In this document: one piece after another, positions 1,682 to 24,719 of the stretch
Layout of the letters: each line of letters opens with the position of its first letter
Numbering within the stretch: position 1 is the first letter of the stretch
NCBI GenBank assembly: GCA_965204085.1
Contig: CBDBEE010000003.1
Location: 1,449,981-1,513,980, forward strand
Direction: 5' to 3'
DNA: 64,000 nt
Source of the DNA: Candidatus Poribacteria bacterium
GTDB taxonomy: Bacteria > Poribacteria > WGA-4E > JAJDTR01
Position numbers and translations under genes: made by a program
Notes under the pieces: generated by a model
The model's database searches: none
Seen by the model: the letters and a program-made list of their open reading frames with translations, nothing else
What the model was told of the DNA's origin: nothing

Positions 1682-1882
1682 TTAGTTGCTCATTCATTAT
1701 CCAACGCTTGATCTCTCCGGCGAGACCTTGTTTGAATAGTTATCTTTTCCCCTGATAAGGGAGGTTATGAGCTTGTTTGAAAACACGATGAAGCCCAGTC
1801 CCTTGTGGCCATTCACGACTCTCTAACCTTTTTCAAACAGGCTATTGGTATCATACTCTTTGCCCTAGATTTTGAGGAAATC

Positions 1883-3553: not shown

Positions 3554-3909
3554 GTTGGAGATAGGAAATCATCGGATAAATCTCGTAGACGTGGGACTTG
3601 CGCACTTTCGTTGGCGCGAAGGATATTAAGGTGCAACTGAATATTGGGGTACAAAAGCTCTATGAAATCCTAAAGCAGGTTGTTTCCGGAGTTATTAATG
3701 ATAGGCTGGAAAAGCTGAGGAATGAAATGCGCCTAGCTGCGCTTTACGATGAATTCGCTAAAGAGGACCAGCAACTCGCCGAGGAAGGGTTGTCAGATTA
3801 CAACGAAGCATTGACGAAAGAGGACGTTTCTTGATGGCAAAGCGGTTCTCTCGCTAAGCGTATATAACACTGTTTCAAAGTAAAAGGATCAAGTGGCCGA
3901 ATAGGGAAC

Positions 3910-3981
3910 GCGATAGAGATTCCCGTGTGACACACGCCGCGTTACCCCAACAAGATGTAGGAGCGATCTCCGAATCGCAAC
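3910..3981. repeat. Composite REP-like element: reversed family-2 core plus family-1 GTAGGAGCGATCTCCGAATCGC motif.
   Basis: cgcgatagagattcccg ... gtaggagcgatctccgaatcgcaac in the 500 bp nuoG-nuoH gap. Same arrangement at 15703-15759. Confidence 0.5.
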
Positions 3982-4054
3982 CTGCGCATCTTCTTTGTTG
4001 CACGTTTTTTGGGTTTTACTAATCACTAATCACTAGCCACTAAACACTGACTAT

Positions 4055-5239
4055 ATGGATTTACCACTTCATGTTCTCATTATTAGTTCGCTAATCAAAA
4101 TTCTTGTCGTCGTCCATGTGCTACTGATTGGCGTCATGGCGATGATTCTAGCGGAACGAAAGGTTAGCGGCTGGATTCAAGATCGCCATGGGCCTAACCG
4201 TGTCGGACCATGGGGGATTTTGCAGCCTATTGCAGACGGCATCAAGTTCCTGCTGAAGGAGGATTTGATTCCCGACCATGTGGATAAACCGATATATGTG
4301 CTTGCCCCCGCGATGCTCCTCGTGCCGGCGCTTATTATTTGCGCGGTTGTTCCGTTTGGGAGTTCCATCACCATCGCAGGCTACCCGATTCCGCTCCAGA
4401 TTGCAGACATCAACATCGGTATTCTATATGTTCTGGCGATTACCTCGCTGGGCGTGTACGGCGTCGTGCTTGGAGCATGGGCGTCGAATAACAAATACTC
4501 TCTACTTGGCGGCCTGCGGTCCTCGGCTCAGATGATTAGCTATGAGCTAACACTGGGACTTGCAATCATCGGAGTGCTTATGTTGTCGAGTTCGCTTAGT
4601 CTCCGAGACATCGCTATCGCGCAAGGGGCAAATATCTGGAATTGGAATTTCCTGATTCATTTTCCTGCATTTCTTGCCTTCACGACCGCCGCTTTTGCGG
4701 AAACCAATCGCTTGCCTTTCGATCTTGCCGAAGCTGAACAGGAGCTTGTCGCCGGATACCACACGGAATATAGCAGTATGAAGTTCGCCATGTATTTCAT
4801 GGCGGAATATATGAACATGATTGTGGGATCAGCGGTAGCCGTCACGCTATTTCTCGGTGGCTGGCATTTCTTCGGGTTGGAGAATCTCGGCGGCCCCTTC
4901 TGGAGCGGTATGATTTCAGTCGGAATCTTCACGGTCAAGACAGCACTCTTCCTCTTTGTTTTTATCTGGGTTCGTTGGACTTTGCCTCGATTCCGGTACG
5001 ACCAGTTGATGAATCTGGGATGGAAATTCCTGTTGCCCGTTGCGCTGACTTCAATCGTCGTTACGGCGATAGTATGGATTGGGACACAGTCGAAAGTATT
5101 GGTGGGGGTGTGCAACGTCGTAGCCGCCTTTATTGTTGTTGCAATCGTGGCAAGTGCATTAGCCATGCGCCGCGAACCGGAGCAAGTTGAACGTCAAGAA
5201 CCTAGTTTTATGGAAGGCTCCTCATCTGAAAGGACATAG
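4055..5239 (+). CDS. nuoH: NADH-quinone oxidoreductase subunit H (NuoH/ND1).
   Basis: AERKVSGWIQDRHGPNRVGPWGILQPIADGIKFLLKED is the NuoH signature. Multi-TM protein. Confidence 0.9.
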   Translation: MDLPLHVLIISSLIKILVVVHVLLIGVMAMILAERKVSGWIQDRHGPNRVGPWGILQPIADGIKFLLKEDLIPDHVDKPIYVLAPAMLLVPALIICAVVPFGSSITIAGYPIPLQIADINIGILYVLAITSLGVYGVVLGAWASNNKYSLLGGLRSSAQMISYELTLGLAIIGVLMLSSSLSLRDIAIAQGANIWNWNFLIHFPAFLAFTTAAFAETNRLPFDLAEAEQELVAGYHTEYSSMKFAMYFMAEYMNMIVGSAVAVTLFLGGWHFFGLENLGGPFWSGMISVGIFTVKTALFLFVFIWVRWTLPRFRYDQLMNLGWKFLLPVALTSIVVTAIVWIGTQSKVLVGVCNVVAAFIVVAIVASALAMRREPEQVERQEPSFMEGSSSERT

Positions 5240-5275
5240 CGAGGGGTTGCTATATTATGCACAGTCAGGAGAGAG

Positions 5276-5983
5276 ATGGACGCTGAACCTATTCTATTCA
5301 TCGTTTTCGGAGCGCTCGCCCTCATTGGCGCGGTGGCTGTAATCGGGTTCAAGAACCCAGTTTACAGCGCGATTGCCTTAATCGGCACATTCTTCGCGCA
5401 AGCGGGTCTGTTCATTCTACTTGGTGCGCATTTTGTTGCCGCCGTACAAGTCATCGTCTATGCGGGCGCGATTATGGTATTGTTCCTATTCGTGATTATG
5501 CTGCTCAATCTTGGCAGCGTTCGCGCCGATCAGCCTAAGGCAGGGATAGCCAAAGGCGCGGCGATTATTTTAGGGATAATCTTCGCACTTGAAGGCGTCT
5601 ATATTGCCGTAAATGCCTCCAAAGGCACGGTTGTCGCACGAGTCAAACAGGAAAGCACTGTCGGTGGAGGGGCAATAACCGAAGCACAACTCGAAGAAAT
5701 TGGCGAGATAGAGGCGACCTATCAGCTTACGCGCGATGAGATTAATACCGAATATGTTCCTCAGGTTGCCACGGCGGACAAAACACTGGAGAGTCTGACT
5801 GCGGTCGAGGCTCAAACGTTAATTCAAACGCTTCAAAGTGAAATGGGGATAACCGAGCGGATCGGTACCGTGTTGTTTAGCAAATTCCTTCTGCCTTTTG
5901 AGGTGACTTCTTTAATTTTGCTGGCTGCACTGATTGGGGTTATTGCACTGGTGAAACGGGAGGAACCGAAAGAGGTTTCCTAG
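5276..5983 (+). CDS. nuoJ: NADH-quinone oxidoreductase subunit J (NuoJ/ND6) with a long soluble loop or extension.
   Basis: N-terminal TM core NPVYSAIALIGTFFAQAGLFILLGAHFVAAVQVIVYAGAIMVLFLFVIMLL. Follows nuoH by 37 bp, so nuoI is absent here. Confidence 0.8.
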   Translation: MDAEPILFIVFGALALIGAVAVIGFKNPVYSAIALIGTFFAQAGLFILLGAHFVAAVQVIVYAGAIMVLFLFVIMLLNLGSVRADQPKAGIAKGAAIILGIIFALEGVYIAVNASKGTVVARVKQESTVGGGAITEAQLEEIGEIEATYQLTRDEINTEYVPQVATADKTLESLTAVEAQTLIQTLQSEMGITERIGTVLFSKFLLPFEVTSLILLAALIGVIALVKREEPKEVS

Positions 5984-6013
5984 CCCCGACTTGAGATCGT
6001 TGAGGATTGAGAT

Positions 6014-6313
6014 ATGGGTTTGGAGTGGTATCTAGGTTTAAGCGCATTACTTTTTACCGTAGGCGTAGTTGGTGTGCTGATTAGACGGAACGCCATCATT
6101 ATCTTCATGTGCATTGAACTGATGCTGAATGCGGCGAACCTCGCCTTTGTTGCCATATCGCGTGAATTGGGAGATCCATCGGGACAGGTTTTTGTTTTCT
6201 TCGTGATGACTGTCGCGGCTGCCGAGGTGGCTATCGGGCTGGCGATTATTGTAAGTGTCTTTAAGCATCGTGAGACGGTGAATGTTGATGAGGTTGATTC
6301 ACTCAAGGGATGA
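6014..6313 (+). CDS. nuoK: NADH-quinone oxidoreductase subunit K (NuoK/ND4L).
   Basis: 99 aa, 3 [22 protein letters not shown] motif. Confidence 0.9.
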
Positions 6314-6337
6314 GCAGTCTCAACCTAAGGATTTGAT

Positions 6338-8323
6338 ATGTCCGTAAACCTCATAATTCTACTACTGATTTCTCCGCTGGTTGGATTCCTCATCAATGGT
6401 CTGTTTGGCAACTGGTTGAGGAATACCGAGAAGCTGAGTGGGTGGATTGCCTGCCTCGCTGTCCTAGTATCACTTATCTGCTCGCTCATCGTATTTACTC
6501 ACGTCAAAGGCGGTGCGGAGTTAAACCAGACGCTCTACCAGTGGATTGCCGCCGAATCTCATGAGTACAGCAAAACCGAACTAGGATCTGGCGAGTCGGC
6601 TACCCCTTTATTCGAGTGGATTACCGGAAATTTTGCGTTCAACATCGGATTTCATGTGGATTCGCTAACCGCCGTCATGCTGCTGATTATCACGGGTATC
6701 GGTTTTCTCATCCACGTTTACTCAATAGGTTACATGCATGGGGATGCGGGTTATACGCGCTACTTCGCCTATCTCAACTTGTTTGTGTTTGCGATGTTAA
6801 TCCTCGTCTTGGCGGACAACTATCTGATGATGTTCGTCGGATGGGAGGGGGTTGGACTGTGTTCCTATCTGCTGATAGGCTTTTGGTACGAGAAAAAATC
6901 CGCAACCGACGCCGGTAAGAAAGCCTTCATCGTCAACCGAATCGGAGATTTCGGCTTTCTACTGGGAATGTTTACGCTTTTCGCTGCCTTCGGCACGCTG
7001 GATTTTATTCCTATCTTTGAGCAAGCCGAATTCATCGAGCGCGTCGAATCAACCGGTTCCAACCTCGTGTTTGGGGCAAGTACGCTCGCCGTTGCAACTT
7101 TGCTGCTCTTTGTCGGCGCCGTGGGAAAATCGGCACAGATTCCGCTGTATGTCTGGCTGCCCGATGCGATGGAAGGCCCAACTCCCGTTAGCGCTCTCAT
7201 TCACGCTGCGACAATGGTCACCGCGGGTGTCTATATGGTGGCGCGTTCGTCGGTGTTATTTGACCTCGCCGGTACGGGTGATGTGGTAGCGTGGATCGGC
7301 GTTCTCACAGCGGCCTTCGCCGCCATCATGGCGTTAGCTGCGAACGACATTAAGCGGGTTCTGGCGTATTCTACCGTGAGCCAACTCGGATATATGTTCG
7401 TGGGTGTGGGCATTGGCGCCTATGCGTCCGGAATTTTTCATCTCATGACACACGCCTTTTTCAAGGGCTTGATGTTCCTTACCGCCGGCAGTGTCATGCA
7501 CGCCATGTCAAACGAACTTGACATGCGGAGGATGGGGGGCTTGAGATCTAAACTTCCAATCACGCACATCACATTTCTTGTCGGGGCGCTCGCCATTTCT
7601 GGGTTCCCACTTCTGAGTGGTTTCTGGAGCAAAGATGAAATCCTGCACAGCGCTTGGGAGAAGGGGCATCCTATCATTTATGTGATAGGATTGGTGACGG
7701 CTTTCCTCACGGCGTTCTATATGTTTCGCCTCATTTTTGGGACGTTTTACGGCAAATCGCGTGTCGATTCGCTGGTTCACCCGCACGAGTCGCCGTCCGT
7801 CATGTGGGTGCCTTTGGCGATCCTTGCCATTCCGTCGGCGCTCATCGGTCTTGTCCTATTAAGTTGGAAAGGGCACGACAGCGCATTCCATCATTTTATC
7901 GGCGGCGTCTTTTCTCACCACGGCGAAAAGGCAGCCCATCACGCCGACAATGTGCTGCTCTTCATGGCAATTTCGTCAATCGTGGGTATCGCGGGGATCG
8001 CTTTGGCATGGGTGAAGTATCGGGATTGGACGCCGCTGGCGCAACCACAATCGGCGATTCATAAGTTGGCTGCGGAAAAGTTCTACGTTGATGAAATATA
8101 CAACGCTGTCTTCGTTCAGCCCATCAAGAAGGTCTCTCAATTTGTCCTGTGGCGCGGTTTGGATGTCTCAATCATTGACGGGACTGTGAACGGTGTCGCT
8201 TTTGTCGTGCGTACCGTTGGAGGCTCGCTGAGGCGGTTTCAGACGGGTGTTGTTCAATCGTATATTGTGTCGATGGTTATCGGAATCATCATTTTTTTGG
8301 CGTACTACCTTTTTATTCGATAA
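6338..8323 (+). CDS. nuoL: NADH-quinone oxidoreductase subunit L (NuoL/ND5).
   Basis: 661 aa Mrp antiporter-like subunit. WLPDAMEGPTPVSALIHAATMVTAGVY motif. Confidence 0.9.
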   Translation: MSVNLIILLLISPLVGFLINGLFGNWLRNTEKLSGWIACLAVLVSLICSLIVFTHVKGGAELNQTLYQWIAAESHEYSKTELGSGESATPLFEWITGNFAFNIGFHVDSLTAVMLLIITGIGFLIHVYSIGYMHGDAGYTRYFAYLNLFVFAMLILVLADNYLMMFVGWEGVGLCSYLLIGFWYEKKSATDAGKKAFIVNRIGDFGFLLGMFTLFAAFGTLDFIPIFEQAEFIERVESTGSNLVFGASTLAVATLLLFVGAVGKSAQIPLYVWLPDAMEGPTPVSALIHAATMVTAGVYMVARSSVLFDLAGTGDVVAWIGVLTAAFAAIMALAANDIKRVLAYSTVSQLGYMFVGVGIGAYASGIFHLMTHAFFKGLMFLTAGSVMHAMSNELDMRRMGGLRSKLPITHITFLVGALAISGFPLLSGFWSKDEILHSAWEKGHPIIYVIGLVTAFLTAFYMFRLIFGTFYGKSRVDSLVHPHESPSVMWVPLAILAIPSALIGLVLLSWKGHDSAFHHFIGGVFSHHGEKAAHHADNVLLFMAISSIVGIAGIALAWVKYRDWTPLAQPQSAIHKLAAEKFYVDEIYNAVFVQPIKKVSQFVLWRGLDVSIIDGTVNGVAFVVRTVGGSLRRFQTGVVQSYIVSMVIGIIIFLAYYLFIR

Positions 8324-8353: not shown

Positions 8354-9892
8354 TTGCTACTATCCGCGGTCATATTTCTACCACTTATTGGGGCGATAAT
8401 TATCGCGCTCACGAGGACGATTGTAAACGCATCGGCGATTAAAGGAATCGCGCTCGCCATTGCGTTGCTGACGTTCGTCGTCTCGCTATCGCTTTACACC
8501 GGATTCGACGAAACAACGTACTTCATGCAGTTCAAGGTACAGAACTCGTGGATTCCGGAGCTGGGCATCAGTTATCAGTTGGGCATTGACGGTATCTCGC
8601 TGTGGTTGGTGCTGTTGACGACCTTCTTGACCCCTATTTGTGTCTTGGCAGCTTGGGGATCGATTGAAAAGGGCGCCAGCGGGTTCATGATTTCCCTTCT
8701 AATGTTGGAGACAGGAATGCTCGGTGTCTTCTGTGCACTCGATCTCTTCCTGTTCTTCGTCTTCTGGGAATCAATGCTCATTCCGATGTACCTGTTGATT
8801 GGAGTTTGGGGCGGCACGCGCCGGATATACGCCACGGTCAAGTTTGTTCTGTACACCATGGCGGGCAGCGCGTTGATGCTTGTTGGAATCTTGTACCTTT
8901 ACTTTCAGAACGATAATAGTTTCGATCTCTTGACGTTGTATGACAAAGCGGGGACTTTGCCGCATCAGCGGCTGCTGTTCTTAGCTTTCTTCGTCGCATT
9001 CGCTATCAAGGTGCCACTGTTCCCGTTCCACACGTGGCTACCAGACGCTCACGTCGAAGCGCCGACGGTCGGCAGCGTGATTCTTGCGGGCGTGTTGCTC
9101 AAAATGGGAACATACGGCATTTTGCGATTCTGCATTCCGTTGTTCCCTGAAGGCACGGTCGCTTTTACGCCACTCATCTCCACGCTTGCGGTTATCGGCA
9201 TTATCTACGGTGCTCTCGTTGCCATGGTGCAGCCCGACCTCAAAAAGTTGGTGGCATATTCGAGTGTTAGTCACCTCGGGTTTGTCGTACTCGGACTGTT
9301 TGCGCTTAACAGTCAGGGGGTGCAGGGCGGAATTATTCAGATGGTCAATCATGGGTTGAGCACAGGCGCGTTATTCCTTCTCGTGGGCATGATTTATGAG
9401 CGTCGGCATACGCGAATGATTGCGGATTTCGGCGGATTGGCGAAGTGCATGCCTATCTTTGCCACGATATTCCTGATTGTTACATTGTCATCAATCGGAT
9501 TACCCGGGCTGAATGGCTTTGTTGGCGAATTCATGATTTTACTCGGTAGCTTTATTTCGGGGGCTTTTTCCAAAGTATACGCTGTATTTGCCGCAACCGG
9601 TGTCATTCTCGCGGCTGTTTATATGCTCTGGATGTTCCAACGCGTGATGTTTGGGAAGTTGGATAAACCGGAAAATCAGAGTTTGAAGGATTTGAATCTG
9701 CGCGAAATCATTGTGCTACTTCCCATACTCCTGTTTATTGTGTGGATTGGTGTATATCCCAAACCGTTCCTGAGTCGGATAGAAAAATCCGTCAATCACG
9801 TTTTGAAACAGCACACGAAGGCTATGGCGGCAATTGGCGAATCACAAAACGCTGTAGTGGTAGATGCAGGGTTAAAAGGAGAGCGTGAATAG
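8354..9892 (+). CDS. nuoM: NADH-quinone oxidoreductase subunit M (NuoM/ND4).
   Basis: TTG start after a GGAGG ribosome-binding site. WLPDAHVEAPTVGSVILAGVLLKMGTYG motif. Confidence 0.9.
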   Translation: MLLSAVIFLPLIGAIIIALTRTIVNASAIKGIALAIALLTFVVSLSLYTGFDETTYFMQFKVQNSWIPELGISYQLGIDGISLWLVLLTTFLTPICVLAAWGSIEKGASGFMISLLMLETGMLGVFCALDLFLFFVFWESMLIPMYLLIGVWGGTRRIYATVKFVLYTMAGSALMLVGILYLYFQNDNSFDLLTLYDKAGTLPHQRLLFLAFFVAFAIKVPLFPFHTWLPDAHVEAPTVGSVILAGVLLKMGTYGILRFCIPLFPEGTVAFTPLISTLAVIGIIYGALVAMVQPDLKKLVAYSSVSHLGFVVLGLFALNSQGVQGGIIQMVNHGLSTGALFLLVGMIYERRHTRMIADFGGLAKCMPIFATIFLIVTLSSIGLPGLNGFVGEFMILLGSFISGAFSKVYAVFAATGVILAAVYMLWMFQRVMFGKLDKPENQSLKDLNLREIIVLLPILLFIVWIGVYPKPFLSRIEKSVNHVLKQHTKAMAAIGESQNAVVVDAGLKGERE

Positions 9893-11368
9893 GTGAAAAA
9901 AAACATCAACAATTATGTCCTACTTTTCCTTGTTTTTAGTGTCATGTTTCTGCTGCTTCCCACGGTTGCTCTTTCAGCCGAAAAGGGACATGATACTCAT
10001 GGCGAACATCACGGAGTCGACGGTGCAAATCTTCCCTTGTGGAGCATCATCCCGTTCGCCGGCATTTTGCTGTCAATTGCGTTTTGGCAACTCATCGCAC
10101 CGCACTTTTGGCATCATAACTACGGGAAAATATCGTTCGCATGGGCGCTGATTTTCGCCATACCCTACCTCATATTTTTTCATGGGCGCGCGCTTTACGA
10201 TATTCTGCACATCTATCTGATTGATTATATTCCGTTTATTATTCTACTTTGGGGGTTGTTCACGGTGGCGGGCGGTATTGTGGTGCGCGGTACGCTGCGC
10301 GGTACGCCGGTAGTGAACCTCGTTCTGCTGCTAATTGGTACCGCCATCGCATCGTGGATTGGGACGACCGGCGCGTCGATGCTACTAATTCGCCCGCTAA
10401 TTCGAGCCAATGCTTACCGAAAAAACAAGACGCACCTGATCATCTTTTTCATCTTCTTGGTGAGCAACATCGGGGGTTCTTTGACGCCGTTGGGCGACCC
10501 GCCCCTGTTCCTTGGTTTTCTGCACGGTGTTCCGTTTTTCTGGACTACGACGGCACTGCTACCGCATATGCTATTCATCTGTGTGCTGCTGCTAGTGCTG
10601 TTCTTCATCCTGGACACCATTATGTTCAAGCGAGAGGGTGGCGTGGTGCCGGATGATGGCGAGAAAGAGCCCATTCGCGTTGCAGGTTTGTTTAATCTGA
10701 TATTCCTTGCGGGGATTGTTGCAGGTGTGTTGATGAGCGGCACGTTTAAGTGGGGCGAGATTAACGTGATCGGCGTACACGTAGCATGGCAGAATATCTT
10801 GCGCGATCTGGTTATTGTAGCGATGGGGTTGCTCTCACTGAAGTTCACGCCCTTCGCAGGTGCACTGCGGCGTGAGAATCAGTTTGAGTGGGAACCGATT
10901 GCCGAGGTTGCCAAGCTGTTCGCCGGAATTTTCATGACGATTATTCCGGCACTCGCGATACTCAAAGCCGGTGAGCAGGGGGCATTAAGTGGGTTGATTC
11001 GCGCGGTGAACGAGCCGTGGCACTATTTCTGGATAACCGGCGTGCTCTCAAGCTTCCTTGATAACGCACCGACGTACTTGACCTTCTTCAATACCGCACT
11101 CGGGAAACTCCACATGACAGAGGCGATGGCACACGAGGTACTCATCGGGGCGGCGGCGAATCCCGAATTTGTCAGACTGCTGACGGCTATCTCTGTCGGG
11201 GCAGTGTTCATGGGCGCCAACACCTACATTGGTAATGCCCCCAATTTCCTCGTCAGGGGTATCGCTGAATCAAGCGGCATTCGGATGCCGAGTTTCTTCG
11301 GATTTATGCTCTGGTCAGTCGCCATCTTGCTGCCGCTCTTCGTCGTTATAACGCTGGTGTTCTTTTAG
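9893..11368 (+). CDS. Polytopic permease inserted between nuoM and nuoN. Putative ion transporter of the ArsB/NhaD/CitMHS-like superfamily, with a His-rich N-terminus.
   Basis: GTG start directly abuts the nuoM stop. About 12 TM helices. Motifs IRPLIRAN and SLTPLGDPPLFLGFL. Signal peptide then KGHDTHGEHHGVDG. Family assignment is from memory of motif style, not a search. Confidence 0.4.
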   Translation: MKKNINNYVLLFLVFSVMFLLLPTVALSAEKGHDTHGEHHGVDGANLPLWSIIPFAGILLSIAFWQLIAPHFWHHNYGKISFAWALIFAIPYLIFFHGRALYDILHIYLIDYIPFIILLWGLFTVAGGIVVRGTLRGTPVVNLVLLLIGTAIASWIGTTGASMLLIRPLIRANAYRKNKTHLIIFFIFLVSNIGGSLTPLGDPPLFLGFLHGVPFFWTTTALLPHMLFICVLLLVLFFILDTIMFKREGGVVPDDGEKEPIRVAGLFNLIFLAGIVAGVLMSGTFKWGEINVIGVHVAWQNILRDLVIVAMGLLSLKFTPFAGALRRENQFEWEPIAEVAKLFAGIFMTIIPALAILKAGEQGALSGLIRAVNEPWHYFWITGVLSSFLDNAPTYLTFFNTALGKLHMTEAMAHEVLIGAAANPEFVRLLTAISVGAVFMGANTYIGNAPNFLVRGIAESSGIRMPSFFGFMLWSVAILLPLFVVITLVFF

Positions 11369-11387
11369 TTGAGTTCGGAGGAAGCAA

Positions 11388-12830
11388 ATGACAGTGCCCG
11401 TCATCAACTGGCACATGCTAATGCCCGAATTGGTCATTGTCCTAACGTTTGTCATCGTGATGGTTTTTGACCTATTCAAGTCAATCCGGAAGTCAGTTCT
11501 AGCTTGGGTGACCATCATCGGAAGCGCTATCGCGCTATGGGCATCAGTAGAAATGCTCCATGCAGGGGTTATCGGAAACGAATTCAACGGCATGTTGCGC
11601 GTAGATCGTTTTTCGATGTTTTTCAATATCATCTTCCTTGTCTCAACAATCTTGGTAACGCTTATTTCCATCAATTACTTGGATCGAAACGATAAACGGC
11701 AAGGTGAATATTATGTGTTAATCCTCTTGGCAACGTTGGGGATGATGTTGATGGCATCGGGCAATGAGTTGATTGTCGTATTTCTCGGTTTGGAGTTGAT
11801 GTCTTTGTCCCTGTATGTGTTGGCAGGATATTTCCGATCCATACAGGTGTCGAGTGAAGCCGGGATGAAGTACCTGTTATTGGGTGCTTTCGCCAGTGGA
11901 TTCTTCCTATACGGTATAGCGCTGATTTACGGCGGCGCGGGGACAACGAGCATTCCCGAGATTGCATCTGAATTGGAAGCCGCCGGGAAATCTCCGCTGA
12001 TGTTGGCAGGGATGTTCTTGCTGATTGTCGGGTTCGGTTTCAAAGTTGCTCTTGTGCCGTTTCACCAATGGGCGCCGGATGTATACGAAGGTGCCCCTAC
12101 GCCGATCGCCGCGTTTATATCAGCGGGGCCAAAAGCAGCGGGGTTCGCAGCATTTCTCAGGATCTTCACGGGGGCGCTGGAGAGCCTTCAACCGGAATGG
12201 ATTGTCGTGGTTGTGATTCTGGCTGCGTTGACAATGACTGTCGGCAACGTGATTGCGACGGCTCAGAGCAACATCAAACGAATGTTGGCGTACTCAAGCG
12301 TCGCGCACGCAGGTTACGTGCTGGTCGGGTTGGCGGCGGCGAACAAAGATGGCATTTCCAGCGCCATGCTTTATCTGCTTATCTACTGCGTGATGAATAT
12401 CGGCGCTTTCGCCGCTGTAATTCTCGCGAGAACCGAAGATGGCGAGAATCTCAGGATTGCCGATTATGCCGGTCTCGGGTTTCGGAAGCCGTTACTCGCG
12501 TTATTTATGACCATCATGCTACTGTCTCTGGCAGGATTTCCGCCTACAGCCGGTTTCGTCGGGAAATTCTACGTATTTCGTTCTGCCGTGGATGCGGGCC
12601 ACACGTGGTTAGTCGTGGTCGCCGCGATTAACACGGCAATTTCAGCGTTCTATTACCTTCGCGTAGTTGTTACGATGTATATGAAGGAACCCGAAGAAGA
12701 GCTTGACTTTCACGCCTACCCAAGTTTACTGGTATTTGCATTGTTGCTTGTTACAATCGGCGTTGTTCTGATTGGAGTTTTGCCCTCGTATTTCTTGGCT
12801 CCGGCTCAAATTAGCACGCAGTTCTTCTAG
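11388..12830 (+). CDS. nuoN: NADH-quinone oxidoreductase subunit N (NuoN/ND2).
   Basis: 480 aa Mrp antiporter-like subunit. FKVALVPFHQWAPDVYEGAPTPIAAFIS motif. Confidence 0.9.
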   Translation: MTVPVINWHMLMPELVIVLTFVIVMVFDLFKSIRKSVLAWVTIIGSAIALWASVEMLHAGVIGNEFNGMLRVDRFSMFFNIIFLVSTILVTLISINYLDRNDKRQGEYYVLILLATLGMMLMASGNELIVVFLGLELMSLSLYVLAGYFRSIQVSSEAGMKYLLLGAFASGFFLYGIALIYGGAGTTSIPEIASELEAAGKSPLMLAGMFLLIVGFGFKVALVPFHQWAPDVYEGAPTPIAAFISAGPKAAGFAAFLRIFTGALESLQPEWIVVVVILAALTMTVGNVIATAQSNIKRMLAYSSVAHAGYVLVGLAAANKDGISSAMLYLLIYCVMNIGAFAAVILARTEDGENLRIADYAGLGFRKPLLALFMTIMLLSLAGFPPTAGFVGKFYVFRSAVDAGHTWLVVVAAINTAISAFYYLRVVVTMYMKEPEEELDFHAYPSLLVFALLLVTIGVVLIGVLPSYFLAPAQISTQFF

Positions 12831-12878: not shown

Positions 12879-13157
12879 ATGGCTAGACTTAGGCGGAGTC
12901 CGGAGGAGTGGAACAGTCTTGACCTAGCGTCAATCGGCATCACACTCGTGCTTGCCATTGGCATTGGATCGGGGTTGGGTTGGTGGATCGGCGGGAAGTT
13001 GGGCAACCAAAAGGTCGGTCTCATCATCGGCTTTGTCATGGGAACCACAGCGGGATTCATGGAGATGTTTAGAGCGGTGTCCCGCTGGAATCGGCGAATG
13101 GAAGAACAAGATCGAGCGGATCGAAAGCGCCAAGATGACACAGGGAAGGATTCGTAG
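12879..13157 (+). CDS. AtpZ/AtpI-like small membrane protein, putative ATP synthase accessory protein.
   Basis: About 90 aa with two predicted TM helices (GITLVLAIGIGSGLGWWIGG and GLIIGFVMGTTAGFM). Sits just upstream of atpI-atpB. Start chosen at MARLRR. Confidence 0.4.
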   Translation: MARLRRSPEEWNSLDLASIGITLVLAIGIGSGLGWWIGGKLGNQKVGLIIGFVMGTTAGFMEMFRAVSRWNRRMEEQDRADRKRQDDTGKDS

Positions 13158-13578
13158 GGTGAGTTCTCAATCGCCTTTTGAAGTAGACGACAAATTCTTA
13201 CAGAAAGTCTACCGCTTGACAGTTGTGTTGACAGTCATTGGTACGGTTATTCTCTGGTCAGTTTACGGTACGCCGGAGGGGTTGAGTTTCGCGATCGGCG
13301 GTTTTCTCAGTTTAAGCGCAATCTTGTCACTAGAGTTTGTTATTCGCCGGTTGGTAAAACCCGGCGGTCCATCGCGAGCCAAGCGTTGGATCGGGTTCGT
13401 TTTATTGGGAAAATACACGGTAATATTTGGCGGTTTCTATCTGTTAATGAAGGCGGATTGGCTAAACGTTTATGCCCTCGCAGTCGGGATCGGCGTAGTG
13501 CAACTCGTAATAATCCTTAAAGCCATCAAACTTATGACAGGAATTCTATTCAGCGACAAAACAACCAAAGATACTTGA
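13135..13578 (+). CDS. atpI: ATP synthase protein I (AtpI).
   Basis: About 147 aa, 4 TM, directly precedes atpB. ATG at 13135 chosen within the longer ORF 12952-13578. Confidence 0.5.
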   Translation: MTQGRIRRVSSQSPFEVDDKFLQKVYRLTVVLTVIGTVILWSVYGTPEGLSFAIGGFLSLSAILSLEFVIRRLVKPGGPSRAKRWIGFVLLGKYTVIFGGFYLLMKADWLNVYALAVGIGVVQLVIILKAIKLMTGILFSDKTTKDT

Positions 13579-13588
13579 TAATATAGCA

Positions 13589-14488
13589 ATGAAAAAAACT
13601 TGTTTCCTTTTAATCGCATCGGTTTTTATTCTGGTTGGAGTTGGTTTCGACTTTGGGTTCGCGGCTGAAGATGCTCATGAATCCTCGCAAGACACCCACG
13701 CTGAGGGCGGGCACGGCGGTGCGCATCTCCACTACTCTTGGCTGCACCCGCTGTCCAAAATTATTCCGAATGAGATAATTCCTGAGCCGATCGGCTGGCA
13801 TCAGCCGGATTTAATCCTCAACGCCTATTTCGCGGTGTTGGTTATCACCATCCTTTTCATCTTTGGGACTCGAAAGTTGAAACGACTTCCCGAAGGTAAG
13901 GGGCAGACACTGCTGGAACTGTTTGTCGGTGGATTAATAAGCTTCTTCGGCGGCATTTTGGGCGAACACGGGAAAAAATATGTCCCGTTTGTCGGATCCT
14001 ACTTTATCTTCATTCTGTTTCTGAACTATCTTGGCCTTATTCCCGGTTTTCTGTCTCCGACAGCAGATTTGAACACAACGGTCGCACTCGGGGTTACAGC
14101 CTTAATTGGTGTTCACGTCATTGCTATTAAAGAGAACGGGATCGTCGGTTATTTGAAGCACTTTGTTGGGGATCCGTGGTGGCTTGGACCTTTGATGTTT
14201 CCGTTGCACATCATCGGAGAGCTTGCACGCGCCGGGTCACTGGCAATCCGTCTGTTTGGAAATATCTTCGGCGAGGAATCAGTTATAATCAACTTGACCG
14301 TTTTAGGGCTTGCCCTTCCTCTTATTTTCGGCAAGATTCCTTGGGCGCCGATACAGGTGCCCATGCTGTTTTTCGGACTTTTTGGCGGGTTGTTGCAGGC
14401 ACTTGTTTTCTCGATGTTGACATCAATCTACATCGTTACGTTCCTTGAGCATCATGACGAAGAGCATGGTGCGGAGGCACATCATTAA
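13589..14488 (+). CDS. atpB: F0F1 ATP synthase subunit a.
   Basis: LAIRLFGNIFGEE contains the conserved stator arginine. His-rich N-terminal (QDTHAEGGHGGAHLH) and C-terminal (EHHDEEHGAEAHH) tails. Confidence 0.9.
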   Translation: MKKTCFLLIASVFILVGVGFDFGFAAEDAHESSQDTHAEGGHGGAHLHYSWLHPLSKIIPNEIIPEPIGWHQPDLILNAYFAVLVITILFIFGTRKLKRLPEGKGQTLLELFVGGLISFFGGILGEHGKKYVPFVGSYFIFILFLNYLGLIPGFLSPTADLNTTVALGVTALIGVHVIAIKENGIVGYLKHFVGDPWWLGPLMFPLHIIGELARAGSLAIRLFGNIFGEESVIINLTVLGLALPLIFGKIPWAPIQVPMLFFGLFGGLLQALVFSMLTSIYIVTFLEHHDEEHGAEAHH

Positions 14489-14574
14489 CTGTTGAGCGGC
14501 TGTTGTCGTTCGTTCACACTGTTTTTCAGTGTTTTAATCTCGATTAAAGTTTACTAATCAAAGGAGGAAATTCG

Positions 14575-14892
14575 ATGATTTATCTTGCAGTTTTAGCTTT
14601 CGGGGTAGCGCTCGGTCTGCCAATTGCGGTCATTGCGGCATCGACCGCACAAGGAAAGGCGACGAGCACCGCTCTTGAGGGCATTGCACGTCAGCCCGAG
14701 GCTGCGCCTAGGATCCAGGTAGCGATGATTATCGGTTTGGCTCTCATCGAGTCGCTGGTCATCTATTCGCTGCTGATCTTTTTCCTGCTGATGGGAAAAC
14801 TCCCGGACGTGACGCCGGCTGAGGGTGAAAAGGTCAGCCCGCTTGAAAAGATAATGCAAGCCGCGCCAACTAACGGCGATCAAGATCATTAG
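14575..14892 (+). CDS. atpE: F0F1 ATP synthase subunit c with a Na+-binding-type signature and a C-terminal extension.
   Basis: Aligns residue-for-residue around ARQPEA with the Ilyobacter c subunit. Q in AQG, and E-S-x-x-x-Y in LIESLVIYS. About 30 aa hydrophilic C-terminal tail. Confidence 0.9.
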   Translation: MIYLAVLAFGVALGLPIAVIAASTAQGKATSTALEGIARQPEAAPRIQVAMIIGLALIESLVIYSLLIFFLLMGKLPDVTPAEGEKVSPLEKIMQAAPTNGDQDH

Positions 14893-14962
14893 AAGAAAAC
14901 TAAAGCATGAAACGTACTGCGCGATCATCGTGGTCGCGCGCTATGTTTCAGCGTAGACGACA

Positions 14963-15574
14963 TTGCGAGTCATCATGAAAAGATATAGAAATTTAGTCTT
15001 ATTGGTCTGTATAAGCACATTGATAGCTATCCCGTGTGCGTTCGCCGCCAGTGATAGTACCGGAGGCGGCGGGCTGTTGGGCGCTATCGGACTCGACCCC
15101 AAAACAATCATACTTCAAGCACTGGGTTTTCTCGTTGTCCTGCTTGTGCTTTGGAAGTTCGTCTTTGGCCGCGTTGGCGGGCTGTTGGATGAACGACAGA
15201 AAGAGACAACTTCACGCATGGAGAAGCTGGAGACGGACCAGCGTGAGTTAGATCGGTTGAATGCCGAAACTCGTCAACGGCTGAGTGAGATTGAATCGGA
15301 AGGGCAAGCCAAAATTCAAGCTGCTATCAATGAAGGGAATGCCGAGAGGCAGCGCATTCTCGATCAGGCGCGTCAGGAAGCATCCGCCGAACTTGATAGG
15401 GCACGCACAGAAATTCAGCGTGAAAAGGATGAGGCAATCCTCGAATTACGGGGGACTGTCGCGGAGGTTGCGATTGAGGCGGCTAGCAAGATTATTGATC
15501 AGACACTCGACGGCGAGAAACATCAGCACATTATTGATGAGTCAATTCGGCGCTTGCCTGCCCAAGGCGCTTGA
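14963..15574 (+). CDS. atpF: F0F1 ATP synthase subunit b.
   Basis: Single N-terminal TM then a long charged coiled-coil (LDERQKETTSRMEKLETDQRELDRLNAE...). Confidence 0.8.
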   Translation: MRVIMKRYRNLVLLVCISTLIAIPCAFAASDSTGGGGLLGAIGLDPKTIILQALGFLVVLLVLWKFVFGRVGGLLDERQKETTSRMEKLETDQRELDRLNAETRQRLSEIESEGQAKIQAAINEGNAERQRILDQARQEASAELDRARTEIQREKDEAILELRGTVAEVAIEAASKIIDQTLDGEKHQHIIDESIRRLPAQGA

Positions 15575-15702
15575 TGCTTAGGATTTCCGTACACGAGTCA
15601 AAACATAATCGTAACTGTTTAGTTTATCAATCTGTTTTGGGAATGTTGGTTCGTCGTGCTGCAGTTTAATCCCGTTCCTACACCATCAAGCGAATGAATA
15701 GT

Positions 15703-15759
15703 GAGTGCGATAGAGATCCCCGAGCGTAATGTAGGAGCGATCTCCAGGTCGCGATTTCC
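15703..15759. repeat. Composite REP-like element (family 2 core reversed plus family 1 GTAGGAGCGATCTCC).
   Basis: gtgcgatagagatccccgag cgtaat gtaggagcgatctccaggtcgcgatttcc inside the unusual 336 bp atpF-atpH gap. Confidence 0.5.
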
Positions 15760-15909
15760 TGCTGGCGCCTAAGTTCTGGACTGAACTAAACAATTACACA
15801 TAATCAACAGAATAGCCGTAAGGTAGATACCGCGCGTCATCAGGTTGTAAGGACAACGGTCTTACGGCAGGATTTTGTCACAATCACTAGAGATCGGAGA
15901 GTATACCCG

Positions 15910-16449
15910 ATGAGAGATATTCGGATTGCCAAACCTTACGCGCGAGCGTTGTACGATGCGGCGGTGGAGCAGGAAGCTTTGGATCGCATCGTAGGGGAGG
16001 CCAACCAGATCATAAGCCTAGCACACAATTCAGAGGATTTTGAAGGATTCCTAACCAATCCGATTCTGTCGCCACAGTTCAAGAGCGAGATGTTTCAACA
16101 ACTTCTGTCGGAAACCATCCATCCTCTCACCTTGAACTTTCTGCTACTACTGGCATCGAAACAGCGTGAGAGATTCCTGGTGGCAATCTTGCAAGCGTTT
16201 CTCGAACTTGTGGATTTGAAAGCGGGACGTGTCGTGGCGCAGGTGACATCTGCCGTTCCGCTCAGCGATGCGCAACAAGCGAATCTTGTTCAACAACTAA
16301 GCGACTATTCCGGAGCTGAAGTAAGACTTGAGTTAAGCGAAGATAGTACAATCAAAGGCGGAATCATTGTGCGATTGGGAGACACGGTATTTGATGGAAG
16401 CGTGGCGACGCAGTTACAACGGCTGAAATCGCTGCTTGCAAGAGGTTAG
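15910..16449 (+). CDS. atpH: F0F1 ATP synthase subunit delta (OSCP).
   Basis: 179 aa, IAKPYARALYDAA start typical of delta. Position between atpF and atpA. Confidence 0.8.
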   Translation: MRDIRIAKPYARALYDAAVEQEALDRIVGEANQIISLAHNSEDFEGFLTNPILSPQFKSEMFQQLLSETIHPLTLNFLLLLASKQRERFLVAILQAFLELVDLKAGRVVAQVTSAVPLSDAQQANLVQQLSDYSGAEVRLELSEDSTIKGGIIVRLGDTVFDGSVATQLQRLKSLLARG

Positions 16450-16500
16450 AACAGGAAAGAGAAATAAAGCGCTGTTGTCGAATGAGGGGGAAAATAGATT

Positions 16501-18030
16501 ATGGCAAGAGAAGTTAGACCCGATGAAGTTTCAAATATACTAAAACAACAATTGCTGCAATTCAATCAACAGGTCGACGTTTACGATTCCGGGACAGTCT
16601 TGGATGTTGGTGACGGAATCGCACGCGTGCATGGGCTTGCCAATGTCATGGCGAGCGAGATGATTGAATTTCCGAACGATGTGTTCGGAATGGCGTTCAA
16701 CCTAGAGGAAGACAACGTCGGTTGTGTGCTTTTCGGTGAAGACAAATTGATTCACGAAGGCGACCTCGCCAAACGGACCAATCGATTGCTCGAGGTTCCC
16801 GTTGGTGAAGGGTTACTCGGGCGGGTCGTCAATGCGCTGGGGCAACCCATCGACGGAAAAGGAGAACTTGGCACTAGTGAGACACTTCCCGTCGAGCGAA
16901 AAGGATTGGGCATTGTCCAGCGTCAGCCTGTCTCCGAGCCGCTGTATACCGGTTTGAAAGCCATTGACAGCATGACAGCTATCGGGCGCGGACAGCGGGA
17001 GTTGATCATCGGTGACCGTCAAACGGGCAAAACCGCCATTCCGATTGACACAATAATCAATCAGAAAAACACCGACGTGTTCTGTATTTACGTAGCGATA
17101 GGTCAGAAGGGATCGACAGTCGCACAGGTTGTTACCACACTCGAGCAGCACGGCGCAATGGACTACACCATCGTTGTCTCGGCGCCTGCCAGTGAGCCGT
17201 CACCTCTCCAATATCTTGCGCCGTATACCGGCACGTCAATGGGAGAATACTTCCGTGACAAGGGGCAGCATGCACTGATTATTTACGATGATCTCACCAA
17301 ACACGCGTGGGCGTATCGGCAAATGTCCCTACTCTCGCGGCGACCGCCGGGGCGAGAAGCCTATCCCGGTGATGTCTTCTACCTGCACTCAAGATTGCTT
17401 GAGCGATCGGCGAAACTCAGTGACGAGTTGGGAGCCGGTTCGCTGACTTCGCTGCCTATCATCGAGATTTTCGAGGGTGATTTGACCACTTACATTCCTA
17501 CCAATGTAATCTCAATCACGGATGGGCAGATTTATCTAACTTCTGAACTGTTCAATCAAGGTGTGCGTCCGGCAATTGATGTCGGTACGTCGGTATCGCG
17601 TGTCGGCGGGGACGCGCAGACAAAAGCCATGAAAGCCGATGAGGTGGCAGGTACGCTCAAGCTGGATCTAGCCAGTTTCCGCGAAGTTGCCGCATTCGCG
17701 CAGTTCGGTTCCGATCTTGACGCATCCACACAATCCCAGCTCCGCCGTGGCGAGCGACTGGTGGAGTTGCTTAAGCAGCCGCAGTATGAACCGATGCCAG
17801 TGGAAAAACAGATAGTCTCAATCTTCTGTGGATCAACGGGATATCTTGACGATATCGAAGTGGCGGATGTGTCGAGATTTGAGACCGAATTCCTTACCTA
17901 CATGGATAGGAATCATGCGGAACTCCTCAAGGAAATCGCCGAAACTGGCGTTTTGAGCGATGAACTTATTGATGGTCTTCATGAGGCGGTGAAAAGTTTC
18001 AAGGGGCGGTTCAAGGTGAATGAGGCATAG
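16501..18030 (+). CDS. atpA: F0F1 ATP synthase subunit alpha.
   Basis: P-loop [18 protein letters not shown] and conserved alpha-subunit sequence throughout. Confidence 0.95.
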
Positions 18031-18040
18031 AGGTGACGAA

Positions 18041-18244
18041 GTGAAACTAAAAATCATTCTCCACGAAGCGGAAGAGGGTGGATATTGGGCAGAAGTGCCC
18101 TCAATTAAGGGATGTGTGAGTCAAGGTGAGACGCTTGACGACTTGATTGAGAACATCTCTGAGGCAATAGAAGGTTGTTTATCTGTGGATATCAGTGATT
18201 GCGATGTCGGCGAGAAAGACACAGTCATGGAGATAGCCGTTTGA
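18041..18244 (+). CDS. hicB: HicB-family antitoxin (UPF0150-like).
   Basis: KLKIILHEAEEGGYWAEVPSIKGCVSQGETLDDLIENISEAIEGCL matches the HicB N-domain pattern. GTG start. Stop overlaps the hicA TTG start (gtTTGAaat). Confidence 0.65.
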   Translation: MKLKIILHEAEEGGYWAEVPSIKGCVSQGETLDDLIENISEAIEGCLSVDISDCDVGEKDTVMEIAV

Positions 18245-18447
18245 AATCCCTGACGGGAAAAGAGTTTTGCCGTTTATTGAATAGGAAAGGTTGGGAATTG
18301 AAGCGAATCAAGGGCAGTCATTACATTTTCGCCAAGGATGCACCTTCTGCCCGAATCTCGGTTCCCGTTCACGGGAATAAAACTCTCAAGCAAGGCTTGC
18401 AGCGGCATCTCATGAAAATAGCGGGTATTGATGAAAGTGAATTGTAG
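18241..18447 (+). CDS. hicA: HicA-family mRNA interferase toxin.
   Basis: LKSLTGKEFCRLLNRKGWELKRIKGSHYIFAKD...VPVHGNKTLKQGLQRHLMKIAGI is the YcfA/HicA pattern. TTG start at 18241. Confidence 0.65.
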   Translation: MKSLTGKEFCRLLNRKGWELKRIKGSHYIFAKDAPSARISVPVHGNKTLKQGLQRHLMKIAGIDESEL

Positions 18448-18468
18448 CAGGGAGTTCAGGAGTTTATA

Positions 18469-19335: not shown

Positions 19336-19345
19336 AATTTTAGTT

Positions 19346-20961: not shown

Positions 20962-21040
20962 GAGGATGAATTTGAGAATTGCGATCTCAAAGCGTCCCAT
21001 GGGCAAGTTACCCAAACCACGAATTAGAGGAGGATTACCA

Positions 21041-21862: not shown

Positions 21863-21935
21863 TCGGGTATATACTCTACGCTGTTGGACGTTGCGTTTTT
21901 AAGAGTCAAGAAATGGAGCATGAGTTTTGCCGGCG

Positions 21936-23294: not shown

Positions 23295-24719
<1,425 letters not shown>

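What the first reader, a model, noticed from the sequence alone, without database searches (positions are those of the whole stretch)
9893..11368. A 12-TM permease gene is inserted inside the complex I operon, and nuoI is absent
The gene starts at the nucleotide after the nuoM stop and ends 20 nt before nuoN, so it should be co-transcribed with complex I membrane-arm subunits. The cluster runs nuoG-H-J-K-L-M-x-N with no nuoI between H and J. The product has motifs IRPLIRAN and TPLGDPPLFLGFL, which I associate with the ArsB/NhaD/CitMHS ion-transporter superfamily.
Basis: partly seen in the sequence, partly recalled or inferred. Interest (0 to 1): 0.5.

Follow-up and report, generated by a model that had tools for sequence, protein, structure and literature searches.

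The report
Sodium/proton antiporter gene inside complex I operon
A Poribacteria genome carries a probable sodium/proton exchanger gene wedged between two complex I membrane-subunit genes, an arrangement first reported in Rhodothermus marinus in 2005 and found here in at least three more phyla, so it is real and conserved but not new in kind.

Summary
ORF 9893-11368 (+, 491 aa) starts on the base after the nuoM stop and ends 19 nt before nuoN. It matches Pfam CitMHS_2 (PF16980) end to end (E 2.8e-181), which places it in the ion-transporter (IT) superfamily.

The window contains no nuoI, and neither do 80 related loci. The window comes from a Candidatus Poribacteria genome.

This is not a recent insertion. 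Including the window, 52 of 81 loci have nuoM-X-nuoN. They come from Poribacteria, Gemmatimonadetes and Latescibacterota. The nuoM stop and the X start are 0, -1 or -4 nt apart in 43 of 51 measurable junctions, which points to translational coupling.

Elsewhere the same protein sits next to ATP synthase operons, next to Na+-NQR (Neisseria) or after TRAP transporter genes.

The Neisseria homologue is 51% identical and is probably the characterised NhaE Na+/H+ antiporter. That link is inferred, not verified.

Best reading: an NhaE-type Na+/H+ antiporter co-expressed with complex I. This matches the nhaD homologue reported among the R. marinus complex I genes in 2005, so I class it as a new member of a known kind.

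nuoI must lie elsewhere in the genome. I could not locate it.

The parts
9893..11368 (+). Gene X: 491-aa CitMHS_2 / IT-superfamily transporter, a probable NhaE-type Na+/H+ antiporter. Residues 1-29 look like a signal peptide (ends ALSA), ~30-43 are a His-rich linker, and 45-491 form the transporter core.
   Evidence: Pfam PF16980 E 2.8e-181, residues 45-491 against profile positions 2-448 of 448. AF2 model pLDDT 83.5, pTM 0.81. Foldseek best PDB matches are DASS/SLC13, Pho90 and TRAP. 51% identical to the Neisseria homologue.
9876..9895 (+). nuoM-X junction: Shine-Dalgarno AAGGAG inside the nuoM 3' end, nuoM TAG stop at 9890-9892, X GTG start at 9893-9895. This is a likely site of translational coupling.
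   Evidence: Sequence read. The same 0, -1 or -4 nt junction occurs in 43 of 51 measurable related loci.
11369..11387 (+). 19-nt X-nuoN spacer containing GGAGGA ahead of the nuoN ATG.
   Evidence: No terminator-like site falls in either intergenic spacer.
8354..9892 (+). nuoM
   Evidence: TIGR01972 E 1.5e-194; Proton_antipo_M.
11388..12830 (+). nuoN
   Evidence: TIGR01770 E 6.4e-140.
1805..8323 (+). nuoG, nuoH, nuoJ, nuoK and nuoL, with no nuoI between H and J. A variable 500-bp spacer with a 78-aa ORF lies between G and H.
   Evidence: Pfam and NCBIfam. No NuoI by motif scan or tblastn.
12952..19335 (+). atpI-B-E-F-H-A-G directly downstream of nuoN (121-nt gap). atpD and atpC follow at 23310-25203 after four unrelated genes.
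   Evidence: Pfam.

Best explanation
Gene X encodes a secondary ion transporter of the IT superfamily (Pfam CitMHS_2). It most likely belongs to the NhaE type of Na+/H+ antiporters. It is transcribed with the complex I membrane-arm genes, and its translation is coupled to that of nuoM. As a result it is made whenever complex I, and probably the ATP synthase genes immediately downstream, are made. As a separate membrane protein it would exchange Na+ against the protons pumped by complex I. That would keep cytoplasmic Na+ low and maintain a sodium gradient for Na+-coupled uptake systems in a marine or sponge-associated bacterium. Shown here: family, predicted fold, gene order, junction anatomy, and conservation of the arrangement. 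Inferred: Na+/H+ as the substrates, the direction of transport, and that the protein acts independently rather than bound to complex I. nuoI, which carries two essential Fe-S clusters in every known complex I, must be encoded elsewhere in the genome. In the window's clade the same holds for nuoA-F.
For: Family: PF16980 matches full length at 603 bits. The AF2 model is confident, and the nearest solved folds are Na+-coupled IT-superfamily elevator transporters: INDY, NaDC1, VcINDY, NaCT and TRAP SiaQM.

Co-expression: a 0-nt junction with a Shine-Dalgarno sequence. Including the window, 52 of 81 loci have nuoM-X-nuoN, and 43 of 51 measurable nuoM-X gaps are 0, -1 or -4 nt.

The arrangement spans Poribacteria, Gemmatimonadetes (L055) and Latescibacterota (L061, L080). 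In L055 and L061 the operon reads nuoD-E-F-G-H-J-K-L-M-X-N.

Other contexts also involve ion gradients:
- X heads atpIBEFHAG in Poribacteria L011-14.
- atpH-A-G-D-C-X occurs in twelve loci, mostly Syntrophales and Deltaproteobacteria MAGs.
- X lies ~1 kb upstream of nqrA of Na+-NQR in Neisseria.
- X directly follows TRAP transporter genes in Azospirillum and Desulfolutivibrio.

Link to function: X is 51% identical over 461 aligned residues to the only Neisseria homologue. That protein's 90%-identity cluster includes N. meningitidis proteins. N. meningitidis NhaE and R. marinus NhaE are experimentally shown Na+/H+ antiporters (review PMC9408914).

Precedent: Melo et al. [quoted passage not shown]

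Two invariant acidic residues, D202 and D390, sit at the tip of the first predicted re-entrant hairpin and at the break of a broken helix. That suits a cation/proton site.
Against: No transport assay exists for this protein or for any Poribacteria homologue. I could not retrieve the R. marinus NhaE sequence, so orthology to it is untested. That the Neisseria gene I found is the published NhaE is an inference. Pfam names the family 'putative citrate transport', and the nearest solved structures carry anions with Na+. NCBIfam has no model that matches. Thirteen of the 81 homologues sit among unrelated housekeeping genes, so linkage to bioenergetic operons is frequent but not universal.
Confidence: 0.6

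Rival explanations
1. X is a physically attached accessory module of complex I. It would dock on the membrane arm near NuoM/NuoN and give the enzyme a built-in Na+/H+ exchange, so that complex I moves H+ out and Na+ in as one machine.
For: The position between nuoM and nuoN is fixed, with a translationally coupled start, across three phyla. X is about as conserved between phyla (63-67% identity) as NuoM (61-63%) and more conserved than NuoN (51-53%). R. marinus complex I, whose genes include an nhaD homologue, has been proposed to move H+ out and Na+ in.
Against: The same protein family works alone when expressed in E. coli (review). It also occurs next to ATP synthase, Na+-NQR or TRAP genes, or among unrelated genes. 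None of the ten long proteins checked among the best 150 representatives is fused to a Nuo or Atp subunit; the extra parts are TPR, OmpA or ParB_C domains or have no Pfam match. From my own knowledge, no solved complex I structure contains such a subunit.
Confidence: 0.12
2. X carries something other than Na+/H+, for example a di- or tricarboxylate, phosphate, sulfate, arsenite or a metal ion. Its place in the operon would then serve substrate supply or detoxification rather than ion-gradient conversion.
For: Pfam names the family 'putative citrate transport'. The closest solved folds are DASS/SLC13 carboxylate and sulfate carriers and the Pho90 phosphate carrier. A His-rich periplasmic linker, present in most but not all homologues, could bind metal.
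Against: The homologue contexts (complex I, ATP synthase, Na+-NQR, TRAP) fit ion cycling better than a specific carbon or anion substrate. Pfam ArsB gives no match at E<=0.01. Identity to the Neisseria protein, which databases name a sodium:proton antiporter, is 51%. The His-rich stretch is missing in Gemmatimonadetes, Latescibacterota and Neisseria homologues.
Confidence: 0.18
3. X is a passenger gene that landed in the operon by chance and has no functional tie to complex I.
For: Gene order alone never proves function. The space downstream of X is variable, with 15 nt to 2.4 kb before nuoN.
Against: The arrangement is kept in 52 clusters from three phyla with an almost invariant tight nuoM-X junction. 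Other lineages independently link X to other ion-gradient machines.
Confidence: 0.05

Closest known systems
[quoted passage not shown] 2005, BBA 1709:95; Melo et al. 2006, BBRC 348:1011)
   Same: An NhaD-like IT-superfamily antiporter gene sits among complex I genes; the 2005 title is verified. From my memory of the 2005 abstract, it lies inside the nqo10-nqo14 operon and nqo9 (nuoI) is encoded separately. The gene product was shown to confer Na+ resistance and founded the NhaE family.
   Different: The phylum differs: Poribacteria here, Rhodothermus there. Here nuoH is part of the cluster and nuoG heads it, and an ATP synthase operon follows directly. Sequence identity to the R. marinus protein could not be measured because that sequence was not retrievable with these tools.
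Neisseria NhaE-type antiporter (Sousa et al. 2013, Arch Microbiol 195:211)
   Same: Same Pfam family over the full length (CitMHS_2, E 1.5e-187) and 51% identity to X. It also lies next to a respiratory NADH dehydrogenase operon, about 1 kb upstream of nqrA of Na+-NQR.
   Different: The Neisseria gene is not embedded in the operon and neighbours Na+-NQR rather than complex I. It lacks the His-rich linker. That this gene is the published NhaE is inferred from it being the only homologue in the chromosome.
NhaD Na+(Li+)/H+ antiporters (TC 2.A.62; Pfam CitMHS PF03600)
   Same: Same superfamily. X gives a weak CitMHS match (E 1.1e-11, 44.9 bits, two stretches, residues 121-407).
   Different: X scores 603 bits on CitMHS_2 against 45 bits on CitMHS, so it belongs to the sister family. 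According to the review, residues thought to bind Li+ in NhaD are absent from NhaE.
DASS/SLC13 Na+-coupled carboxylate and sulfate transporters (VcINDY, NaDC1, NaCT, NaS1)
   Same: These are the closest solved folds: Foldseek probability 1.00, TM-scores 0.32-0.46 (yeast Pho90 reaches 0.52). They share the elevator architecture of two hairpins and two broken helices.
   Different: Only 12-15% identity, and no sequence-level match even with a profile. DASS proteins carry anions together with Na+. X has invariant aspartates where I would expect the transport site.
Mrp (CPA3) multisubunit Na+/H+ antiporter
   Same: It is an Na+/H+ antiporter with an evolutionary and functional link to the complex I membrane arm.
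   Different: Mrp subunits are homologues of NuoL/M/N/K. X is unrelated to them in sequence and fold.

Membership tests
Pfam CitMHS_2 (PF16980) | Full-length match to the family profile above the gathering score | tested here: met
   603.5 bits against a cut-off of 25.7, residues 45-491 on profile positions 2-448 of 448. All 120 closest database homologues carry PF16980.
Ion-transporter (IT) superfamily | Elevator-type fold with two repeats, each holding a broken helix and a re-entrant hairpin | tested here: met
   AF2 model with pLDDT 83.5. The broken helices are 139-156/158-172 and 375-388/391-405; the hairpins are 180-197/203-210 and 424-442/449-460. The Foldseek top hits are all DASS, Pho90 or TRAP.
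NhaE family (TC 2.A.111) | Clear sequence homology to a characterised member (R. marinus NhaE or N. meningitidis NhaE) | tested here: inconclusive
   X is 51% identical to the single Neisseria homologue, whose 90% cluster includes N. meningitidis proteins. I could not confirm that this gene is the one published as NhaE. The R. marinus sequence was not retrievable.
NhaE family (TC 2.A.111) | Na+/H+ antiport activity, with Na+ but not necessarily Li+ tolerance on heterologous expression | not testable with these tools
   Needs complementation of E. coli KNabc or EP432 and vesicle assays.
Complex I operon with embedded antiporter (R. marinus type) | Antiporter gene lies among the nuoJ-N genes and is co-transcribed with them | tested here: met
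   For gene order and junction anatomy. Co-transcription itself is inferred, not measured.
NhaD family (TC 2.A.62; Pfam CitMHS PF03600) | Best match to the CitMHS/NhaD profile | tested here: not met
   CitMHS scores only 44.9 bits in two partial stretches, against 603.5 bits for CitMHS_2.
ArsB arsenite pump (Pfam PF02040) | Match to the ArsB profile | tested here: not met
   No ArsB match at E<=0.01 in the Pfam scan, and no NCBIfam match at all.
Complex I core or accessory subunit | Physical presence in the purified or solved complex | not testable with these tools
   None of the ten long proteins checked among the best 150 representatives is fused to a Nuo subunit. No multimer prediction tool was available.

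The most novel reading that the evidence does not exclude
X is a stoichiometric extra ion-exchange module of complex I in Poribacteria, Gemmatimonadetes, Latescibacterota and Rhodothermus. It would be made in step with NuoM by translational coupling and would dock on the membrane arm. The enzyme would then export H+ and import Na+ as one unit. That would explain the disputed Na+ counter-transport reported for R. marinus complex I and define a structurally new complex I variant.
Probability: 0.1. Interest if true: 0.75.

Novelty: new member of a known kind. Interest (0 to 1): 0.33.

Why it matters
Whether complex I handles Na+ as well as H+ is a long-running dispute, and the R. marinus enzyme is one of the main cases cited. 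This analysis shows that the antiporter-in-operon arrangement is not a Rhodothermus oddity. It is a conserved, translationally coupled feature in at least three further phyla. The same antiporter family also sits beside ATP synthase, Na+-NQR and TRAP genes. That gives a clear set of organisms and constructs for testing whether the Na+ effects belong to complex I itself or to a co-expressed NhaE-type partner. For Poribacteria it adds a concrete piece to their sodium and energy budget. As a genome-scan finding it is a sound annotation with a published precedent, not a new kind of system.

Tried and rejected
1. Retrieving the R. marinus NhaE sequence. Two large homologue searches returned no Rhodothermus entry: one with X and one with the Gemmatimonadetes homologue.

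2. Locating nuoI. I ran a motif scan and an E. coli NuoI tblastn over the window and the 80 loci with 10-kb flanks. Both found nothing. I had no permitted way to reach other parts of the same genome; the look-up of P0001 returned no record.

3. NuoM-X fusion. One locus (L016) looked like a 1017-aa fusion in my script. Reading the DNA showed a TAA stop directly followed by GTG, so it is not a fusion.

4. Fusion evidence in the wider family. All ten long proteins I checked among the best 150 representatives carry TPR, OmpA or ParB_C additions or extra sequence with no Pfam match. None is fused to a Nuo or Atp subunit.

5. Na+-coupled ATP synthase as a partner. The Poribacteria c subunit keeps Q32, E65, S66 and Y70 of the Ilyobacter tartaricus Na+ site (residue roles from my own knowledge) but has Leu in place of T67. 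The c subunits of Gemmatimonadetes and Latescibacterota, which have the same nuo-X arrangement, are plain H+-type. A sodium-driven ATP synthase is therefore not required by the arrangement and remains only a possibility for Poribacteria.

6. Sequence-level match to solved structures: none, with either the single sequence or a profile.

7. Rfam and tRNA scans of the window: nothing. Promoter-like sites were at shuffle background and terminator-like sites only modestly above it (29 against 20.8, sd 4.8). None lay in the X spacers.

8. Literature searches for Poribacteria complex I or for nhaD next to nuoM found nothing relevant.

Full report
**What is there**

The first 25 kb of the window carry a respiratory supercluster, all on the + strand.
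- An LRR / type IX secretion protein gene (11-1603) comes first.
- The complex I genes follow: nuoG (1805-3553), nuoH (4055-5239), nuoJ (5276-5983), nuoK (6014-6313), nuoL (6338-8323) and nuoM (8354-9892).
- Then come the gene in question, X (9893-11368), and nuoN (11388-12830).
- After a 121-nt gap come atpI-B-E-F-H-A-G (12952-19335).

Assignments rest on Pfam and NCBIfam. For example, NuoM matches TIGR01972 at E 1.5e-194 and NuoN matches TIGR01770 at E 6.4e-140.

X matches Pfam CitMHS_2 (PF16980) over the whole profile, at E 2.8e-181 with residues 45-491. It matches CitMHS (PF03600) only weakly, at 44.9 bits. There is no ArsB match and no NCBIfam match.

**Junctions**

The X start codon GTG (9893) is the base after the nuoM TAG. 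AAGGAG lies 11 nt upstream, inside nuoM. X ends 19 nt before the nuoN ATG, which is preceded by GGAGGA. The consensus scan places no terminator-like site in either spacer.

**Where the window comes from**

The closest genome loci are Candidatus Poribacteria MAGs. Locus L001, on a record titled 'chromosome: 1' (OZ244829.1), is 97% identical at the protein level. The exact X protein exists in public data on a 2.06-Mb contig.

**Is the arrangement an accident?**

No. I compared 80 loci from species-representative genomes that encode an X relative, each with up to 10 kb of flank. Counting the window as well gives 81 loci, in four context classes:
- 52 have nuoM-X-nuoN. These are Poribacteria plus Gemmatimonadetes (L055) and Latescibacterota (L061, L080).
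- 4 Poribacteria (L011-14) have X directly ahead of atpI-B-E-F-H-A(-G), with no nuo genes nearby.
- 12, mostly Syntrophales and Deltaproteobacteria MAGs, have X just downstream of the ATP synthase F1 genes. The full atpH-A-G-D-C-X run is visible where the contig is long enough, and atpC was confirmed in L057.
- 13 have unrelated neighbours, twice with a universal stress protein gene downstream.

The gap between the nuoM stop and the X start is 0, -1 or -4 nt in 43 of the 51 related loci where it could be measured. The space between X and nuoN ranges from 15 nt to 2.4 kb. A junction held that tightly across genomes is the usual signature of translational coupling.

Between phyla, X is 63-67% identical. 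That is about the same as NuoM (61-63%) and higher than NuoN (51-53%).

**nuoI**

No ORF with the two C..C..C...CP ferredoxin motifs occurs anywhere in the window. The only such ORF in the 80 loci is a 303-aa minus-strand ORF in L069, a locus with no nuo cluster. E. coli NuoI, used as a positive control, shows both motifs, yet it gives no tblastn hit at E<=1e-3 in the window or any locus.

In L055 and L061 the operon reads nuoD-E-F-G-H-J-K-L-M-X-N. There, nuoI is the only gene missing from an otherwise canonical order. In a second Poribacteria clade nuoE and nuoF precede nuoG. In the window's clade they do not.

Several of these loci come from records titled as whole chromosomes, so the absence is not an assembly artefact. 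NuoI carries clusters N6a and N6b in every known complex I (established knowledge), so it must be encoded elsewhere. I could not reach other parts of the genome to confirm this.

**The protein**

- Every homologue begins with a signal-peptide-like segment. Most follow it with a His-rich, low-complexity linker before the first core helix.
- In the window this linker is 9 residues shorter than in L001.
- The linker is absent in the Gemmatimonadetes, Latescibacterota and Neisseria homologues.
- An AlphaFold2 model built on 39 diverse homologues is confident (pLDDT 83.5, pTM 0.81). Only the signal peptide and linker are disordered.
- The nearest solved structures are DASS/SLC13 carriers (INDY, NaDC1, VcINDY, NaCT, NaS1), yeast Pho90 and TRAP SiaQM. 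TM-scores are up to about 0.5 and identity is 12-15%. This is the elevator fold of the IT superfamily.
- No solved relative is detectable by sequence, even with a profile.
- Invariant residues cluster at the first predicted hairpin (N192, T198, P199, G201, D202, P203, P204) and the second (G441, A442, T444, Y445, G447, N448, P450, N451).
- They also cluster at the two helix breaks (G157, T158, T159, G160; S386, S387, D390, N391).
- Two invariant aspartates in what should be the transport domain fit a cation/proton site better than an anion site. This is inference.

**Link to function**

A protein search of the plasmid collection found ten records.
- Two are Neisseria gonorrhoeae records that are really 2.17-Mb chromosomes. 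Each holds a single homologue.
- That homologue is 473 aa, matches CitMHS_2 at E 1.5e-187 and is 51% identical to X over 461 aligned residues.
- Its 90%-identity cluster includes N. meningitidis proteins, all named 'sodium:proton antiporter'.
- It lies about 1 kb upstream of nqrA, the first gene of the Na+-pumping NADH:quinone reductase, with an IS1595 fragment in between.
- N. meningitidis NhaE and R. marinus NhaE are the two characterised members of the NhaE family. Both restore Na+ tolerance in E. coli (review PMC9408914).

I infer, but could not verify, that the Neisseria gene found here is that NhaE.

In Azospirillum lipoferum and Desulfolutivibrio sulfoxidireducens the homologue directly follows TRAP transporter genes. 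From my own knowledge, TRAP transporters are typically Na+-coupled. Complex I, ATP synthase, Na+-NQR and TRAP uptake systems have one thing in common: each makes or uses a transmembrane ion gradient.

**Precedent**

Melo et al. [quoted passage not shown] I verified the title through a reference list.

From my memory of the abstract, the nhaD homologue lies within the nqo10-nqo14 operon and is co-transcribed with it, while nqo8 and nqo9 are separate genes. The same group then characterised the protein and proposed the NhaE family.

R. marinus complex I has also been proposed to move H+ out and Na+ in.

The present locus is therefore a new, well-conserved example of a known arrangement in other phyla. 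I could not obtain the R. marinus sequence to measure identity.

**Best explanation and rivals**

- Best explanation (confidence about 0.6): X is an NhaE-type Na+/H+ antiporter. It is co-transcribed and translationally coupled with the complex I membrane-arm genes. It acts as a separate protein that converts part of the respiratory proton gradient into Na+ extrusion.
- Accessory module of complex I (about 0.12): the fixed position and coupling favour it. Family members that function alone, the varied contexts elsewhere, and the lack of any Nuo or Atp fusion among the long proteins checked argue against it.
- A different substrate (about 0.18).
- A functionless passenger gene (about 0.05).

**A sodium-driven ATP synthase?**

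The Poribacteria c subunit (14575-14892) keeps Q32, E65, S66 and Y70 of the Ilyobacter tartaricus Na+ site (residue roles from my own knowledge). It has Leu at the T67 position. The c subunits of L055, L061 and L080, which share the nuo-X arrangement, are ordinary H+ types. The arrangement therefore does not depend on a Na+-type ATP synthase. For Poribacteria the question stays open.

**Family size**

An exhaustive search of 1.84 billion cluster representatives gives 949 clusters at E<=1e-30 and 2770 at E<=1e-10. The family is large and widespread.

**Verdict**

The finding is a sound annotation with a published precedent. Its added value is showing how conserved and tightly coupled the arrangement is, and that nuoI is consistently displaced. 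Interest is modest (0.33). Novelty: new member of a known kind.

Noticed in passing
window 3554-4054 (ORF 3598-3834, +): A 500-bp spacer between nuoG and nuoH holds a 78-aa ORF with no Pfam or NCBIfam match. The ORF is present in L001, L004, L005 and L008. In L003, L006 and L007 nuoG abuts nuoH, so this is a variable insert inside the operon.
   Followed up: partly
window 19310-25203: The ATP synthase operon is split. atpG ends at 19335, and atpD (23310-24719) and atpC (24796-25203) follow only after four unrelated genes with Dockerin, Cu2_monoox_C, Dabb-like and DnaJC28-like domains.
   Followed up: partly
window 14575-14892 (+): The ATP synthase c subunit is 105 aa, with a roughly 30-residue hydrophilic C-terminal tail that is conserved in close relatives. 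It carries a partial Na+-site signature (Q, E-S and Y kept; Leu at the I. tartaricus T67 position).
   Followed up: partly
window 9980-10020 (X residues ~30-43): The His-rich periplasmic linker after the signal peptide is 9 residues shorter than in the 97%-identical relative L001. The linker is length-variable across Poribacteria and absent in some phyla. Its role (metal binding, pH sensing or proton collection) is unknown.
   Followed up: partly
L081 3938-7664 (Neisseria gonorrhoeae NZ_CP119140.1): The Neisseria homologue of X lies about 1 kb upstream of nqrA (Na+-NQR), with an IS1595 transposase fragment in between. The PLSDB record labelled a plasmid is 2.17 Mb, so it is really the chromosome.
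   Followed up: partly
L082 and L083 (Azospirillum lipoferum p3; Desulfolutivibrio sulfoxidireducens p1): X homologues annotated as sodium:proton antiporter directly follow TRAP transporter genes on the same strand.
   Followed up: no
window 12952-13578 (+): The atpI ORF as listed (208 aa, TTG start) has a long N-terminal stretch outside the Pfam match (residues 86-180). The real start is probably an internal Met near residue 62.
   Followed up: no
window 4055-5983 (+): NuoH (394 aa) has a hydrophilic C-terminal extension. NuoJ (235 aa) has a large insertion relative to the 146-position Pfam profile.
   Followed up: no
window 36353-43707 (-): A haem/iron uptake cluster: ABC ATPase, FecCD permease, periplasmic binding protein, HmuY-like protein, a cytochrome c assembly-like fragment and a TonB-dependent receptor. 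A Uma2 nuclease gene on the + strand interrupts it.
   Followed up: no
window 31955-32551, 35544-36059, 45313-45753, 53156-53605: Mobile or defence remnants: an HsdM N-terminal fragment, a DDE_3 transposase fragment, an IS1595-type transposase fragment and a MazF/PemK toxin gene.
   Followed up: no
window 47054-50212 (-): A 1052-aa ORF with no Pfam match, next to a PorV/UPF0164-like gene (45788-46870).
   Followed up: no
L041 and L050 (same MAG, CAZOAL01): One Poribacteria-like MAG carries two X copies. One follows nuoM, with a 2.4-kb insert before nuoN. The other stands alone between a DUF3108 gene and a SpoIIE-type phosphatase gene.
   Followed up: no
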